Below are positions 24,603 through 29,215 of a stretch of DNA of 32,000 nt, in pieces (the stretch's first letter is position 1; each line of letters begins with the position of its first letter). The notes beneath the pieces were generated by a model that saw nothing but the letters and a program-made list of their open reading frames with translations, was not told the DNA's origin and made no database searches. The translations under genes and the position numbers were made by a program. Source of the stretch: Bellilinea caldifistulae (GTDB lineage Bacteria; Chloroflexota; Anaerolineae; Anaerolineales; Anaerolineaceae); assembly GCF_001306055.1 (NCBI RefSeq), contig NZ_LGHJ01000024.1, positions 1 through 32,000 of the forward strand, read 5' to 3'.

Positions 24603-25454
24603 ATGGCAGAACGAGTCAACACCAACGTGACCTACATCCGACCGGCGCGCGGCTGGATCAACATCAACCTGCGCGATCTTTGGCTCTACCGCGAACTGGT
24701 CTATTTCCTCACCTGGCGGGATATTAAAGTGCGCTATAAGCAGGCAGTCCTTGGCATCGGCTGGGCAATTTTTCAACCTGTGCTGAGCATGGTCATCTTT
24801 ACGGTCATTTTCAACCGCTTTTTAGGCGTTAAACCGGATGCTGGCATTCCCAACGAGTTCTACCCGATCTTCGGTTTTGCAGCCTTGCTGCCATGGCAGT
24901 TTTTTCAGGGGGCGCTGCAGCGCGCCAGCATCAGTCTGGTGACCAACGCCAACCTGCTCACCAAGGTCTATTTTCCTCGCCTGATCATCCCCCTTTCGGC
25001 GGTGGCTGCCGGGCTGGTTGATTTCTTCTTTTCTTTCATCGTGCTGGCTGCCATGATGATCTACTTTGGCGTGCCGTTTACGAGCCGTCTGTTGTGGCTG
25101 CCACTCTTTTTGTTGCTGGCCCTTTTAGCGGCGCTGGCGGTGGGGCTTTGGCTATCGGCGCTCAATGTCCAGTACCGCGATGTGCAGCACATGGTTCCGT
25201 TTCTTCTGACGGCCTGGATGTACGCCTCGCCAGTGGTGTACTCGGCCGAAGTCATCACCGTTTCCCCGTTCTGGCAGGCAGTTTATGCCCTCAACCCGAT
25301 GGTTGGAGTCATTCAGGGTTTCCGCTGGGCATTATTCGGCACCAACCCACCCGGTCTTTCCATGCTGGTTTCGGCCGGGGTGGTGCTGGTTTTGTTTGTA
25401 TCAGGCCTGTTTTACTTCCGGCGCATGGAGCGCATTTTTGCGGATATGATATGA
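24603..25454 (+). CDS. wzm: ABC-2 type polysaccharide/teichoic-acid export permease (Wzm/TagG/KpsM class)
   Basis: LWLYRELVYFLTWRDIKVRYKQAVLGIGWAIFQPVLSM signature and 6 TM helices. 283 aa. Confidence 0.8.
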   Translation: MAERVNTNVTYIRPARGWININLRDLWLYRELVYFLTWRDIKVRYKQAVLGIGWAIFQPVLSMVIFTVIFNRFLGVKPDAGIPNEFYPIFGFAALLPWQFFQGALQRASISLVTNANLLTKVYFPRLIIPLSAVAAGLVDFFFSFIVLAAMMIYFGVPFTSRLLWLPLFLLLALLAALAVGLWLSALNVQYRDVQHMVPFLLTAWMYASPVVYSAEVITVSPFWQAVYALNPMVGVIQGFRWALFGTNPPGLSMLVSAGVVLVLFVSGLFYFRRMERIFADMI

Positions 25455-26701
25455 GCGACATTGCCATTCGAGCCAATCATCTGGGTAAACAATACCGCCT
25501 TGGCGCGCTCTACGAGCAGCGTTACCGCACCCTGCGCGAATCACTGGGTTCTCTTTTCCGGCGCGATGAAAGGAAATCCCACGAAACCATCTGGGCCTTG
25601 CGGGATGTGTCCTTTGAAGTCAAACAGGGCCAGGTGTTGGGAGTGATCGGGCGCAATGGGGCAGGAAAAAGCACCCTGCTCAAACTGCTTTCGCGCGTCA
25701 CCGAACCCACCGAAGGAGAAGCCGAGATTCACGGGCGGGTTGGCTCGCTGCTGGAAGTCGGCACCGGTTTTCATCCCGAATTGACCGGACGAGAAAACAT
25801 CTTTCTCAACGGCGCCATTCTGGGCATGCGTCGCACCGAGATCGAGCGCAAGTTCGATGAAATTGTCGCCTTTGCTGAGGTGGAGCAGTTCATTGATACA
25901 CCGGTCAAACGCTATTCCAGCGGGATGTACCTGCGCCTTGCTTTTGCTGTGGCTGCCCATCTGGAACCGGAGATTCTGGTGGTGGATGAGGTGCTGGCGG
26001 TTGGCGATGCCGAGTTCCAGCGCAAATGCCTTGGAAAGATGGGCGATGTTGCCCGCGAGGGCCGCACGGTGCTGTTCGTCAGCCACAACATGTCGGCCAT
26101 TTTGAGGCTGACCGAAGAAACGCTGGTGATTGAAAAGGGTCGTCTGGCGTTACGGGCTCCAACGCCACAAGCGGTGGATTATTACCTTTCGCGCGGATTT
26201 GCCCGTGAGGGGGAGCGCATCTGGGAAGCCGATGAAGTGCCGGCTGCTTCCCTGCCTTTCCGCCCGCTGGCCGTGCGTCTGCGTAACCCACGCGGTGAAG
26301 TGGTCAATTCCATCCGCTCGGCGGAAGCCAATACCATTGAGGTGGAGTACTGTCTGGATGCGCCGATCACCGGCCTGCGGGTGGGCATTTACCTGATGAG
26401 CATGCGCGGCGAGACCATCTTCACTTCCTTTGACACGGATGACCCGCAAGTGTTTGAACAAATGGCCGTCCGCCCGGCGGGGCATTACCTCAGCCGCTGT
26501 ACCCTGCCGGCAGATTTGTTGAACGAAGGCCGTTTTGTGATTGGAATCAACGCCAGTTCGTATCGGGTGCGCCGCTATTTTCAAGATGAGCAGGCCCTCA
26601 CCTTCTCGGTGGACATCACCGGAGCGCCCGGAACGCAATGGCCGGAAACTCGTTTGGGAGCGGTTCGACCGCGCCTGGAATGGACAATTGAGGCAGTTTG
26701 A
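25451..26701 (+). CDS. wzt: Polysaccharide export ABC ATPase (Wzt/TagH class) with a C-terminal beta-rich extension of about 170 aa (Wzt_C-like)
   Basis: Start ATG 25451 overlaps the wzm stop (ATGA). Walker A GRNGAGKST, signature YSSGM, Walker B ILVVDE. The tail (VRLRNPRGEVVNSIRSAEANTIEVEY...HYLSRCTLPADLLNEGRFVIGI) resembles the glycan-terminus-binding domain of Wzt. Confidence 0.75.
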   Translation: MSDIAIRANHLGKQYRLGALYEQRYRTLRESLGSLFRRDERKSHETIWALRDVSFEVKQGQVLGVIGRNGAGKSTLLKLLSRVTEPTEGEAEIHGRVGSLLEVGTGFHPELTGRENIFLNGAILGMRRTEIERKFDEIVAFAEVEQFIDTPVKRYSSGMYLRLAFAVAAHLEPEILVVDEVLAVGDAEFQRKCLGKMGDVAREGRTVLFVSHNMSAILRLTEETLVIEKGRLALRAPTPQAVDYYLSRGFAREGERIWEADEVPAASLPFRPLAVRLRNPRGEVVNSIRSAEANTIEVEYCLDAPITGLRVGIYLMSMRGETIFTSFDTDDPQVFEQMAVRPAGHYLSRCTLPADLLNEGRFVIGINASSYRVRRYFQDEQALTFSVDITGAPGTQWPETRLGAVRPRLEWTIEAV

Positions 26702-26704
26702 CTT

Positions 26705-28327: not shown

Positions 28328-28342
28328 CAAAGGCGTGATTGG

Positions 28343-29215
28343 ATGAGCGAAACCCGGGTTAAACAAAAAGTGCGTGAGTTTTACGATCAGGTCGGCTGGC
28401 AAACCGTCAGCGATGGCCTGTATCAAAACGCGCGCTATGAAGACCTGCGGCCAGTATCCCGTGAGTACATTCACCGCTGCCACCTGCGGGTTAACCGGCA
28501 TCTTGCACCGCAGGGTCGGTTTTTACTGGATGCCGGTTCCGGGCCGGTGCAGTACCCCGAATACCTGACGTATTCGCAGGGCTATCGTTACCGCGTGTGC
28601 GCCGATATTTCGATCCTCGCCTTGCGGGAAGCCCGCAAGCGACTGGGTGATCATGGGTTGTTTGTGGTTGCGGATGTTGCCAATTTGCCCTTCCGCGCGG
28701 ATGTGTTCGAGGGGGTGGTGTCCCTTCACACCCTCCATCATCTGCCTTTGAATGAGCAAAAACAAGCCTATCATGAACTCTACCGCGTCTTAACTCCCGG
28801 ACGCAGTCTGGCAGTGGTCAACGGCTGGACGGATTCACCACTCATGCGTCGGTTTGGCTGGCTGGTGAACCTGATGGAGACCATCGGTAAGTGGATTGCC
28901 CGATTGCGCGGCAAAGAAAAAGCAACACCCCGCAACGACGGGAAAACCGCCGTTCCTGTTAAGGCAACCCCAACCGGCACCTTTGTGGAAAAACTGGACG
29001 CAGCCTGGCTGCGCCGCGAATTAGCCGAATTAAGTCCCCAAATCTGGGTCTGGCGGAGCGTCAGCGTACGCTTTTTGCGCGCCGTCATTCACCGCCTTCT
29101 GGCCGGGCGTCTGTGGTTGCGTTTGTTATACGCGCTGGAAGAACGATTTCCGCATTATTTTGGTGAAAAGGGGCAATACCCCCTGATTGTGATTGATAAA
29201 CCGAAAGGATCATGA
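28343..29215 (+). CDS. Class I SAM-dependent methyltransferase with a C-terminal extension of about 100 aa
   Basis: Motif I LLDAGSGPVQ, plus VADVANLPFRADVFEGVVSLHTLHHL. 290 aa. Confidence 0.7.
   Translation: MSETRVKQKVREFYDQVGWQTVSDGLYQNARYEDLRPVSREYIHRCHLRVNRHLAPQGRFLLDAGSGPVQYPEYLTYSQGYRYRVCADISILALREARKRLGDHGLFVVADVANLPFRADVFEGVVSLHTLHHLPLNEQKQAYHELYRVLTPGRSLAVVNGWTDSPLMRRFGWLVNLMETIGKWIARLRGKEKATPRNDGKTAVPVKATPTGTFVEKLDAAWLRRELAELSPQIWVWRSVSVRFLRAVIHRLLAGRLWLRLLYALEERFPHYFGEKGQYPLIVIDKPKGS

What the first reader, a model, noticed from the sequence alone, without database searches (positions are those of the whole stretch)
25451..29215. Wzt with a glycan-binding-type tail next to a KpsC/KpsS-like transferase and a methyltransferase: a capped-glycan export system, possibly capped by a nonulosonic acid
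Seen: the order is wzm, wzt (ATGA-coupled, with a C-terminal extension of about 170 aa), a 540-aa GT-B-like protein with Capsule_synth-like blocks, a 290-aa SAM methyltransferase, and then nonulosonic-acid-type sugar genes. Established: in ABC-transporter-dependent O-antigen systems, a Wzt C-terminal domain recognises a non-reducing-end cap that also stops polymerisation. That cap is methyl or methyl-phosphate from WbdD-type enzymes, or a beta-Kdo residue from WbbB. KpsC, KpsS and WbbB are ulosonic-acid (Kdo) transferases. Inference: this operon has both kinds of candidate capping enzyme. The Kdo-transferase-like protein sits with a NeuB-family synthase rather than Kdo genes, so a nonulosonic-acid or methylated cap read by the Wzt tail is plausible. 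That combination in a likely monoderm or atypical envelope would be new.
Basis: partly seen in the sequence, partly recalled or inferred. Interest (0 to 1): 0.6.

Follow-up and report, generated by a model that had tools for sequence, protein, structure and literature searches.

The report
Cap-reading glycan exporter with sugar-acid transferase
In the single-membrane bacterium Bellilinea, a sugar-chain export pump with a built-in sugar-reading domain is always followed by an enzyme that most likely adds a sialic-acid-like nine-carbon sugar, and usually by a methyltransferase; this looks like a new version of the known "cap the chain, then export it" checkpoint, but nothing has been shown at the bench.

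Summary
Wzt has a 171-aa tail whose model matches only solved Wzt carbohydrate-binding domains at the top of the search. The 540-aa protein (GT540) is closest to the beta-Kdo transferases KpsC and WbbB. It has the invariant HP motif and an N-x-x-x-D motif where those enzymes have Q-x-x-x-D.

The genome has no Kdo-8-P synthase, LpxC or Omp85. It has two NeuB synthases and two KpsC-like enzymes, all in this locus, so the donor is most likely a CMP-nonulosonate.

In 121 sampled Anaerolineales genomes, 72 relatives have the GT540 orthologue, and the same 72 have this Wzt tail. The tail gene lies just upstream of GT540 in 68. The methyltransferase follows in about 59, and two sequences fuse it to GT540. 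Where the methyltransferase is missing, the reading domain is unchanged, so the methyl group is probably not what the domain reads.

The genes open a conserved locus of about 32 kb for an envelope glycan. A nonulosonic-acid cap is the best reading but is unproven. An in-chain transferase or a KpsS-like primer enzyme remain possible, and no coiled-coil ruler was found.

The scan found this module before in other Anaerolineales genomes (e1-2307034, e1-2303341).

The parts
23104..23589 (+). MarR-family EPS-associated regulator, first gene of the one-strand locus
   Evidence: HTH_24 47.6 bits. TIGR04176 MarR_EPS 65 bits, below its cut-off of 88. Found in the same place in 4 of 10 relatives.
23586..24548 (+). 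GDP-L-fucose-synthase-like epimerase/reductase (Fcl-like)
   Evidence: Epimerase 194.8 bits. NF047922 313 bits, below its cut-off of 500. 71-79% identical and syntenic in 10 of 10 relatives.
24603..25454 (+). Wzm, ABC-2 permease of the glycan exporter
   Evidence: ABC2_membrane 80.9 bits. Its stop codon overlaps the wzt start as ATGA.
25451..26185 (+). Wzt nucleotide-binding domain (residues 1 to about 245)
   Evidence: ABC_tran 78.6 bits. The best solved relative is Aquifex aeolicus Wzt (8dku/7k2t, E 6.6e-64), aligned over residues 37-362.
26186..26701 (+). Wzt C-terminal carbohydrate-binding domain (residues about 246-416), including the stop codon
   Evidence: Wzt_C 25.7 bits, below its cut-off of 30.4. 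The AlphaFold2 model has pLDDT 84.4. The best Foldseek matches, down to listed rank 15, are all Wzt binding domains or full-length Wzt: 6o14 TM 0.75, E 5.9e-8; 5hno; 2r5o. The tail is 48-68% identical in 72 Anaerolineales relatives.
26705..28327 (+). GT540: KpsC/KpsS-like modified GT-B transferase with N320-x-x-x-D324 and H361-P362; candidate retaining CMP-nonulosonate transferase
28343..29215 (+). Class I SAM methyltransferase that partners GT540
   Evidence: Methyltransf_11 57.4 bits. It lies directly downstream of GT540 in most of the 59 relatives that have it. It is fused to GT540 in P0243 and in G255.
29234..30256 (+). PseB-type inverting UDP-GlcNAc 4,6-dehydratase, first step of nonulosonate module A
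   Evidence: TIGR03589 513.5 bits, cut-off 407.75.
30253..31191 (+). RmlD-like 4-reductase, standing where Pse and Leg pathways have an aminotransferase
   Evidence: RmlD_sub_bind 192.5 bits. No DegT-type aminotransferase lies on this contig.
31217..32000 (+). NeuB-family nonulosonate synthase 1; the gene ends at contig position 32290, beyond the window
   Evidence: NeuB 243.8 bits plus a SAF domain on the full gene, L001:217-1290.

Best explanation
Genes 24603-29215 are the export and finishing module of a locus of about 32 kb. The locus is inherited vertically across much of the order Anaerolineales. It builds a cell-envelope glycan rich in nonulosonic acids in a monoderm bacterium.

Proposed mechanism:
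1. The glycan is assembled in the cytoplasm on a lipid carrier.
2. GT540 transfers a nine-carbon ulosonic acid from its CMP-activated form onto the non-reducing end. The acid probably comes from the adjacent PseB, reductase, NeuB1 and cytidylyltransferase genes. GT540 is a KpsC/WbbB-like enzyme, and Asp324 is the presumed covalent nucleophile.
3. In most lineages the partner methyltransferase then methylates that residue or its neighbour.
4. The carbohydrate-binding domain on Wzt binds the acidic cap and admits only finished chains to the Wzm/Wzt channel.

Shown here: the folds, the motifs, the gene linkage, the GT540-methyltransferase fusion, and the absence of a Kdo pathway.
Inferred: the donor, the cap position, and that the Wzt domain reads this residue.
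For: Wzt tail:
- Its model matches only Wzt binding domains at the top of the list.
- In every studied system with such a domain, it binds a terminal cap that is required for export (PMC11231755).

GT540 fold and motifs:
- A family profile finds KpsC in the PDB at E 6e-4.
- HP is invariant.
- The layout is a beta-strand, then N-x-x-x-D, then 37 residues, then HP. The KpsS-like protein FixF has the same spacing with Q-x-x-x-D. In KpsC that Asp is the proven nucleophile (PMC10148158).

Donor:
- There is no KdsA; the only look-alike is a DAHP synthase.
- The genome's two clear NeuB synthases and its only two Capsule_synth proteins all lie in this locus.
- Distant homologues sit beside NeuB and/or cytidylyltransferase genes in 6 of 8 other Chloroflexota loci, and in an Azospirillum plasmid locus.
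- KpsS1 is a precedent for a KpsS-like pseudaminic-acid transferase.

Linkage:
- 72 of 72 relatives with GT540 have this tail subtype, and in 68 it lies just upstream on the same strand.
- The methyltransferase is fused to GT540 in P0243 and in G255.
- The genome's second Wzt with a binding domain is likewise followed at once by a terminal-modifier candidate, a sulfotransferase.
Against: - Neither GT540 nor the methyltransferase carries a coiled-coil ruler, and a crude scan found none in the 33 locus proteins. That ruler is called a characteristic marker of capped systems.
- The whole locus is inherited together. The co-occurrence of the tail with GT540 is therefore not independent evidence that one reads the other's product.
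- A paralogue (GT538) and a third HP-motif protein lie in the same locus. Ulosonic acids could therefore be chain or linker residues rather than a cap.
- The locus has no initiating phosphoglycosyl transferase of its own. That leaves room for KpsS-like priming.
- Gln of the Q-x-x-x-D motif is replaced by Asn. The equivalence of Asp324 to the nucleophile rests on motif order and spacing, not on a superposition. A short-peptide alignment to KpsC was not significant.
Confidence: 0.5

Rival explanations
1. GT540 is an in-chain or polymerising nonulosonate transferase. It builds the repeat unit together with GT538 and the GT4 and GT2 enzymes. The methyltransferase is a decoration enzyme. The Wzt domain reads some other terminal feature, or the polymer backbone.
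For: - Two paralogous KpsC-like enzymes each sit beside one NeuB module.
- KpsC itself is a polymerase.
- No ruler protein was found.
- The methyltransferase can be lost without any change in the binding domain.
Against: - GT540, not GT538, is the copy locked to wzt in 68 of 72 relatives.
- It is fused to a methyltransferase in some organisms. From my own memory, not checked here, such fusions are typical of terminating modules such as WbdD and WsaE.
- No other cap-enzyme candidate lies in the conserved core of the locus.
Confidence: 0.25
2. GT540, alone or with GT538, works like KpsS/KpsC. It builds a short ulosonic-acid primer or linker on a lipid acceptor at the reducing end, and the exporter recognises that conserved end.
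For: - The closest solved relatives are KpsC modules.
- The ABC-2 exporter is adjacent.
- The 32-kb locus has no WecA/TagO or WbaP-type initiating enzyme, and the genome has only one Glycos_transf_4 (MraY-like) gene.
Against: - All solved or studied Wzt binding domains bind non-reducing-end caps. From my own memory, not checked here, KpsT-type ATPases of linker-based capsule systems lack such a domain.
- Fusion of a primer enzyme to a methyltransferase has no precedent that I know of.
- Five Bac_transf initiating enzymes exist elsewhere in the genome.
Confidence: 0.13
3. The methyl group added by the 290-aa methyltransferase is the cap that the Wzt domain reads, as in E. coli O8 or Aquifex aeolicus. 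GT540 only supplies the residue that carries it.
For: - The methyltransferase follows GT540 in about 59 relatives at 48-65% identity.
- It is fused to GT540 in two cases.
- The nearest solved binding domain, from A. aeolicus, was crystallised with 3-O-methyl-mannose (8dky).
Against: - The methyltransferase was not found in family f58 (8 of 9 genomes) or in G165, G171, G238 and G175, while the tail stays 48-65% identical there.
- In an alignment of 38 tails from genomes with the methyltransferase and 12 from genomes without it, no position conserved in the first group changes in the second. The only difference is a conservative L-to-V/A change at one site. 40 columns are invariant in both groups, one of them an all-gap column.
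Confidence: 0.08
4. GT540 is a true beta-Kdo transferase and the cap is Kdo, as in Klebsiella O12.
For: KpsC and WbbB, both Kdo transferases, are the closest solved structures. One cytidylyltransferase of the locus is KdsB-like at 83 bits, below its cut-off.
Against: - The genome is 99.7% complete and has no Kdo-8-P synthase. The only hit is a DAHP synthase (507.8 bits for NF006421; 131 bits against a cut-off of 314 for KDO8P_synth).
- There is no LPS pathway marker: LpxC is absent.
- NeuB synthases are the only ulosonic-acid synthases found.
Confidence: 0.03

Closest known systems
Klebsiella pneumoniae O12 / Raoultella terrigena: WbbB (GT99 beta-Kdo terminator) with the Wzt carbohydrate-binding domain (PDB 5fa1, 8csb; 5hno)
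   Same: - An ABC-2 exporter whose ATPase carries a beta-sandwich binding domain (Foldseek 5hno E 1.5e-6).
- The logic of cap, read, then export.
   Different: - GT540 stands alone, with no coiled-coil ruler and no fused polymerase domains.
- Asn replaces Gln in the motif.
- The donor is most likely a nine-carbon acid, not Kdo.
- The host is a monoderm.
- The locus is conserved across an order rather than being serotype-specific.
E. coli KpsC/KpsS (GT107, Pfam Capsule_synth) with the KpsMT exporter
   Same: - The best sequence-profile match in the PDB, KpsC 6mgd at E 6e-4.
- Pfam Capsule_synth above its cut-off.
- The order strand, x-x-x-D, helix, strand, HP, and the motif T-S-x-x-G-x-E...G-x-P-V...Y...G-x-T-x-D.
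   Different: - KpsC/KpsS build a poly-Kdo linker on a lipid at the reducing end in diderms.
- From my own memory, KpsT has no binding domain.
- GT540 is about 200 residues longer, has N-x-x-x-D, and has no Kdo pathway to draw on.
Acinetobacter baumannii KpsS1 (GT118), retaining Pse5Ac7Ac transferase (Walklett et al. 2024, as cited in PMC12887879)
   Same: A KpsS-like enzyme that transfers a nonulosonic acid from its CMP donor. This is the precedent for the donor proposed here.
   Different: - KpsS1 works inside a Wzx/Wzy capsule repeat unit, not beside an ABC exporter.
- No sequence of KpsS1 was available here for comparison.
- Whether GT540 belongs to GT118, to GT107 or to a new family is open.
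E. coli O8/O9a (Klebsiella O5/O3) WbdD terminator with the Wzt binding domain (2r5o); Aquifex aeolicus WzmWzt (6o14, 8dky, 7k2t)
   Same: - The gene order wzm, wzt, then a finishing enzyme.
- A SAM methyltransferase in the finishing module.
- The A. aeolicus domain is the nearest solved relative of the tail (TM 0.75), and its whole Wzt is the best sequence match.
   Different: - WbdD has a kinase and/or methyltransferase on a coiled-coil ruler, and the methyl or methyl-phosphate is what the domain reads.
- Here the methyltransferase is dispensable in several lineages with no change in the domain.
- Its solved sequence relatives at E 1e-3 are generic small-molecule and sugar methyltransferases; WbdD is not among them.
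Tannerella forsythia Tanf_01245 / BFO_1060 (Pse or Leg derivative transferase that adds the terminal sugar of the protein O-glycan; PMC5420450)
   Same: An HP-motif GT-B enzyme that places a nonulosonic acid at the non-reducing end, encoded beside the nonulosonate genes and a methyltransferase. GT540 gives a weak local NCBIfam match around the HP region.
   Different: The match is only 33 bits against a cut-off of 200, so GT540 is not a member. The T. forsythia glycan is a protein-linked decasaccharide and has no Wzt reading domain.

Membership tests
Wzt C-terminal carbohydrate-binding domain (Pfam PF14524) | Sequence match to the Wzt_C profile | tested here: inconclusive
   25.7 bits against a cut-off of 30.4, E 1.2e-5, residues 274-390; 28.2 bits in the six-frame search. 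Most orthologues at 67-96% identity carry a precomputed PF14524 hit. The phmmer alignment to A. aeolicus Wzt runs on to residue 362.
Wzt C-terminal carbohydrate-binding domain (Pfam PF14524) | Beta-sandwich fold of solved Wzt binding domains, fused after the nucleotide-binding domain | tested here: met
   Model pLDDT 84.4. The best Foldseek matches, down to listed rank 15, are all Wzt domains or full-length Wzt: 6o14 TM 0.75, rmsd 2.6, E 5.9e-8; 5hno; 2r5o. The next fold, NPC2, follows at E 2.7e-4.
Wzt C-terminal carbohydrate-binding domain (Pfam PF14524) | Binds the non-reducing-end cap of its own glycan | not testable with these tools
   This needs binding assays with the isolated domain and the native polymer.
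Capped-glycan ABC export (WbdD/WbbB type) | ABC transporter ATPase with a carbohydrate-binding module | tested here: met
Capped-glycan ABC export (WbdD/WbbB type) | [quoted passage not shown] | tested here: not met
   The GT540 model is compact at pLDDT 95.9 with no coiled-coil extension. Neither GT540 nor the methyltransferase has a Pro-free 42-residue window. A crude heptad scan of all 33 locus proteins gave no strong candidate, with a best score of 1.27 out of 2. The scan is home-made, so a short or atypical ruler could have been missed.
Capped-glycan ABC export (WbdD/WbbB type) | A terminal residue or group that stops polymerisation and is required for export | not testable with these tools
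   This needs the polymer structure and genetics.
Retaining ulosonic-acid glycosyltransferases with a KpsC-like fold (GT107, GT99, GT118, GT140; Pfam Capsule_synth) | Modified GT-B fold closest to KpsC/WbbB | tested here: met
   [not shown]
Retaining ulosonic-acid glycosyltransferases with a KpsC-like fold (GT107, GT99, GT118, GT140; Pfam Capsule_synth) | [quoted passage not shown] | tested here: met
   H361 and P362 are invariant in 73 family sequences. The paralogue GT538 has HP at 358.
Retaining ulosonic-acid glycosyltransferases with a KpsC-like fold (GT107, GT99, GT118, GT140; Pfam Capsule_synth) | Invariant Q-x-x-x-D motif: Asp as nucleophile, Gln binding the carboxylate | tested here: inconclusive
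   The Asp is present: D324 is invariant in 16 sequences and kept in at least 90% of 73. The Gln is replaced by the nearly invariant N320. The spacing from the motif Asp to the His of HP is 37 residues, the same as in the KpsS-like FixF, which has Q-V-P-S-D. No structural superposition was possible, and a peptide alignment to KpsC was not significant.
Retaining ulosonic-acid glycosyltransferases with a KpsC-like fold (GT107, GT99, GT118, GT140; Pfam Capsule_synth) | Pfam Capsule_synth match above the gathering score | tested here: met
   24.0 bits against a cut-off of 20, residues 311-443 on profile positions 144-275. The paralogue scores 34.5 bits.
Retaining ulosonic-acid glycosyltransferases with a KpsC-like fold (GT107, GT99, GT118, GT140; Pfam Capsule_synth) | Uses a CMP-ulosonic acid donor with net retention through a covalent Asp adduct | not testable with these tools
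   This needs an enzyme assay and intact-mass analysis of a D324C or D324N variant.
BFO_1060 family glycosyltransferase (NCBIfam NF046086; T. forsythia Pse/Leg transferase) | Profile score above the curated cut-off | tested here: not met
   33 bits against a cut-off of 200, and only residues 350-432 match.
WbdD-type terminating methyltransferase | Sequence similarity to the WbdD methyltransferase domain | tested here: inconclusive
   phmmer against PDB sequences at E 1e-3 returns eight generic class I methyltransferases, including 2p8j, the D-glucose O-methyltransferase 6uv6, and MitM. No WbdD chain is among them. A more remote relationship is not excluded.

The most novel reading that the evidence does not exclude
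Much of the order Anaerolineales, a group of monoderm Chloroflexota, makes one conserved wall glycopolymer that plays a teichoic-acid-like core role. Its chains are finished with a nonulosonic-acid cap, often methylated. The cap is added by a new family of retaining KpsC-like transferases with an N-x-x-x-D nucleophile motif. It is checked by the Wzt carbohydrate-binding domain before export. This would be the first nine-carbon-sugar cap in the cap-then-export scheme, and it would work without a coiled-coil ruler.
Probability: 0.35. Interest if true: 0.65.

Novelty: new variant of a known kind. Interest (0 to 1): 0.5.

Why it matters
Cap-then-export quality control has been worked out mainly for O-antigens of Gram-negative pathogens. 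The known caps are methyl, methyl-phosphate and Kdo, and a ruler protein sets chain length.

Here the same reading domain is tied to a KpsC-like enzyme that has only nine-carbon sugar acids to work with. The host has no outer membrane, and the locus is kept almost unchanged across many families of an abundant but poorly known order found in anaerobic digesters, sediments and hot springs.

If the reading holds, three things follow:
- a new cap chemistry is added to the scheme;
- termination can work without a ruler;
- we get a first handle on the main surface polymer of Anaerolineales, which probably shapes their adhesion and granule formation.

It would also add a new branch of retaining ulosonic-acid transferases, with Asn in place of the carboxylate-binding Gln. 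That branch would be useful for enzymology and for chemo-enzymatic synthesis of bacterial sialic-acid analogues.

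Tried and rejected
Gene contexts were taken instead with the genome search and the fetch from genomes.
No census outside Chloroflexota was possible, apart from one plasmid search.
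- phmmer of GT540 against PDB sequences found nothing even at E 10. Only the family profile reached KpsC.
- The KpsC peptide quoted in PMC10148158 was aligned to GT540. BLASTP found nothing. A Smith-Waterman score was no better than shuffled peptides. hmmsearch placed the peptide elsewhere. The Asp324 equivalence therefore rests on Pfam profile coordinates, secondary structure and the FixF spacing.
- The idea that the cap is a methyl group was tested by comparing tails with and without the methyltransferase, and no signal appeared.
- A coiled-coil ruler was looked for and not found.
- Kdo as donor was rejected because KdsA is absent.
- The review by Mann et al. 2019 on cap chemistries is not held in the library, so I could not check whether it predicts nonulosonate caps.
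- Literature searches that combined nonulosonic acid with Chloroflexi or Anaerolineae found nothing relevant.

Full report
**What is there**

The window is the first 32 kb of contig C8 of a 3.66-Mb genome that is 99.7% complete. The nearest database proteins are named Bellilinea sp. or Anaerolineaceae, and earlier notes of this scan call the genome Bellilinea caldifistulae.

- wzm is 24603-25454.
- wzt is 25451-26701 and is joined to wzm by an ATGA overlap. It encodes 416 aa, with about 171 aa beyond the ATPase domain.
- A 540-aa protein (GT540) is 26705-28327 and starts 4 nt after the wzt stop.
- A 290-aa SAM methyltransferase is 28343-29215.
- PseB follows (513.5 bits, above its equivalog cut-off), then an RmlD-like reductase, then a NeuB-family synthase that runs over the window end.

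**The Wzt tail**

The Pfam Wzt_C match is just below threshold, at 25.7 against 30.4 bits. I modelled residues 240-416 with an alignment of 41 orthologues and obtained pLDDT 84.4.

The best Foldseek matches in the PDB, down to listed rank 15, are all Wzt carbohydrate-binding domains or full-length Wzt. They are A. aeolicus 6o14 (TM 0.75, rmsd 2.6 A, E 5.9e-8), the Kdo-reading O12 domain 5hno, and the O9a domain 2r5o. The next fold appears only at E 2.7e-4. The tail is therefore a true Wzt binding domain.

**The 540-aa protein**

A model built on 73 diverse relatives is very confident, with pLDDT 95.9.
- A search that does not rely on Foldseek gives the same order.
- By sequence, the single protein finds nothing in the PDB. 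The family profile finds KpsC chains, the best at E 6e-4 and others at E 0.07-0.15, through the motif T-S-x-x-G-x-E...G-x-P-V...Y...G-x-T-x-D. The remaining weak hits at E 0.07-1.5 are unrelated proteins.
- H361, P362 and E364 are invariant, and N320 and D324 are nearly so.

In KpsC, WbbB and KrkA, the Q-x-x-x-D Asp is the covalent nucleophile, the Gln holds the sugar carboxylate, and HP binds CMP. [quoted passage not shown]

GT540 has a strand (314-318), then N-V-L-G-D, then 37 residues, then HP. Its paralogue GT538 has N-V-I-F-D with the same spacing. The KpsS-like FixF of Sinorhizobium fredii has Q-V-P-S-D, also with 37 residues to HP. So the Asp is kept and the Gln is replaced by Asn. I could not superpose structures, and short-peptide alignments to KpsC were not significant. 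The equivalence is therefore an inference.

**Which sugar**

The genome has no Kdo-8-P synthase. The only look-alike is a DAHP synthase. It has no LpxC and no Omp85, and it has four LCP ligases. It is therefore a monoderm without LPS.

Its two clear NeuB synthases and its only two Capsule_synth proteins all lie in this locus, together with three cytidylyltransferases.

More distant GT540-like genes in other Chloroflexota classes lie beside NeuB and/or cytidylyltransferase genes in 6 of 8 loci, and beside wzm-wzt in 2 of 8. An Azospirillum plasmid homologue of GT538 sits in a neuB/hisH/amidotransferase locus.

A KpsS-like enzyme that transfers pseudaminic acid (KpsS1, GT118) is already known. 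A CMP-nonulosonate donor is therefore the best inference.

**Conservation and linkage**

In 121 sampled genomes of the order, counting this genome, 73 have the GT540 orthologue (41-57% identity where whole). The pattern is all-or-none by family. The same 73 have the orthologous Wzt tail at 48-68% identity.

Among the 72 relatives, the tail lies on the same contig and strand, just upstream of GT540, in 68. In the other four the two genes are on different contigs.

The methyltransferase orthologue (48-65% identity) is present in 59 relatives, and in most of them it lies directly downstream. Two sequences fuse GT540 and the methyltransferase into one protein. They are P0243 (893 aa; 52% and 54% identity to the two parts) and an 853-aa frame in G255.

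Reading through ten relatives from seven GTDB families shows that nearly the whole stretch from fcl to the last GT2 gene, about 32 kb, is syntenic. This is a core, vertically inherited envelope-glycan locus, not a variable antigen locus. It also means that co-occurrence inside the locus is not independent evidence.

**Testing the methyl-cap idea**

The methyltransferase was not found in family f58 (8 of 9 genomes) or in G165, G171, G238 and G175. I aligned 38 tails from genomes with it and 12 from genomes without it.

No position that is at least 90% conserved in the first group changes in the second, apart from one conservative L-to-V/A site. Forty columns are invariant in both groups, one of them an all-gap column. 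The reading domain therefore does not track the methyl group. This favours the residue added by GT540 as the determinant, if there is a cap at all.

**What argues against a cap**

Known capped systems have a terminator on a coiled-coil ruler (PMC11231755). GT540 is compact, and a crude heptad scan found no ruler in any of the 33 locus proteins.

The locus holds a paralogue (GT538, 24% identical) and a third HP-motif protein of 484 aa that lacks the x-x-x-D motif. It has no initiating phosphoglycosyl transferase. An in-chain role or a KpsS-like primer role therefore cannot be excluded.

On the other side, the genome's second Wzt with a binding domain, on contig C7, is also followed at once by a candidate terminal modifier, a sulfotransferase. 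That fits the habit of placing the finishing enzyme right after wzt.

**Verdict**

The best reading, at about 0.5, is that GT540 adds a nonulosonic-acid cap, that the cap is often methylated, and that the Wzt domain reads it.

The rivals are:
- an in-chain transferase (0.25);
- a primer or linker enzyme (0.13);
- a methyl group as the feature that is read (0.08);
- Kdo as the donor (0.03).

This is a new variant of a known kind of system. The scan reached much the same conclusion earlier on other Anaerolineales genomes (e1-2307034, e1-2303341). The motif analysis, the fusion, the comparison of tails with and without the methyltransferase, the absence of KdsA and the whole-locus synteny were worked out here.

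Noticed in passing
window 29234-32000, continuing to contig C8 position 34226 (L001:217-3226): Nonulosonate module A runs PseB, then an RmlD-like 4-reductase, then NeuB1, a GT4 and a KdsB-like cytidylyltransferase. No aminotransferase or N-acetyltransferase is present; the DegT-type genes lie on other contigs. This would give a 5-acetamido-7-hydroxy-9-deoxy nonulosonic acid rather than Pse or Leg, possibly of the fusaminic-acid type. The order is conserved in 10 of 10 relatives.
   Followed up: partly
L001:9957-12097 (contig C8 40957-43097): Nonulosonate module B has a cytidylyltransferase fused to a KdsC/Kdn-9-P-phosphatase-like HAD domain. Next to it is a short NeuB (291 aa, no SAF domain). 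This suggests a 9-phosphate route like that of Kdn or animal sialic acid.
   Followed up: no
L001:12104-13720 (contig C8 43104-44720): A paralogue of GT540 (GT538, 24% identical over 258 residues) has the same N-x-x-x-D, 37 residues, HP layout. It lies directly after NeuB2. Nearly every relative that has GT540 also has it, 12-30 kb away.
   Followed up: partly
L001:5125-6579 (contig C8 36125-37579): A 484-aa protein has R-L-H-P-N-H but no Q/N-x-x-x-D motif before it, and gives a weak BFO_1060-family match. It is present in only 5 of 10 relatives. It may be an inverting CMP-sugar transferase or a TagF-like enzyme.
   Followed up: no
L001:14715-19622 (contig C8 45715-50622): A conserved block holds a third cytidylyltransferase, a 2-hydroxyacid dehydrogenase, an SDR and a 270-aa MptE-like (Maf/DUF115-type) protein. 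Only the 549-aa protein without family matches that lies inside it is not kept in place: it was found, on the opposite strand, in 2 of 10 relatives. The block contains no NeuB. It could tailor a CMP-nonulosonate or activate a different acid.
   Followed up: no
L033:622-5288 (contig C8 50622-55288): The locus ends with two GT2 enzymes, a PMT_2 (GT-C) protein and a DUF6056 membrane protein. This is the pattern for adding sugars outside the membrane after export.
   Followed up: no
L085:5669-8963, minus strand (contig C7 51669-54963): The genome has a second exporter with a reading domain: a 402-aa Wzt with Wzt_C at 75 bits. It is followed at once by a 399-aa sulfotransferase, which suggests a sulfate cap. 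BNR-repeat proteins and an AT3 acyltransferase lie nearby.
   Followed up: partly
proteins P0318, P0368, P0369, P0359 (relatives of GT540 from other organisms): Several more distant family members carry N- or C-terminal TPR repeats. The Klebsiella O4 Kdo terminator also has a TPR-like bundle next to its ruler.
   Followed up: no
window 26621-26659 (Wzt residues about 391-403; tail positions 152-164): The loop G-A-P-G-x-x-W-x-E-x-R-x-G is largely invariant across 50 tails (G155, W158, E160, R162 and G164 in all of them), yet it is the least confident part of the model (pLDDT about 50). It may be a ligand lid or a contact with the ATPase domain or the partner subunit.
   Followed up: no
whole genome G000: Only one Glycos_transf_4 gene (MraY-like, contig C29) was found, so there is no separate WecA/TagO. 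Five Bac_transf initiating enzymes lie on other contigs. How the glycan of this locus is initiated is unknown.
   Followed up: partly
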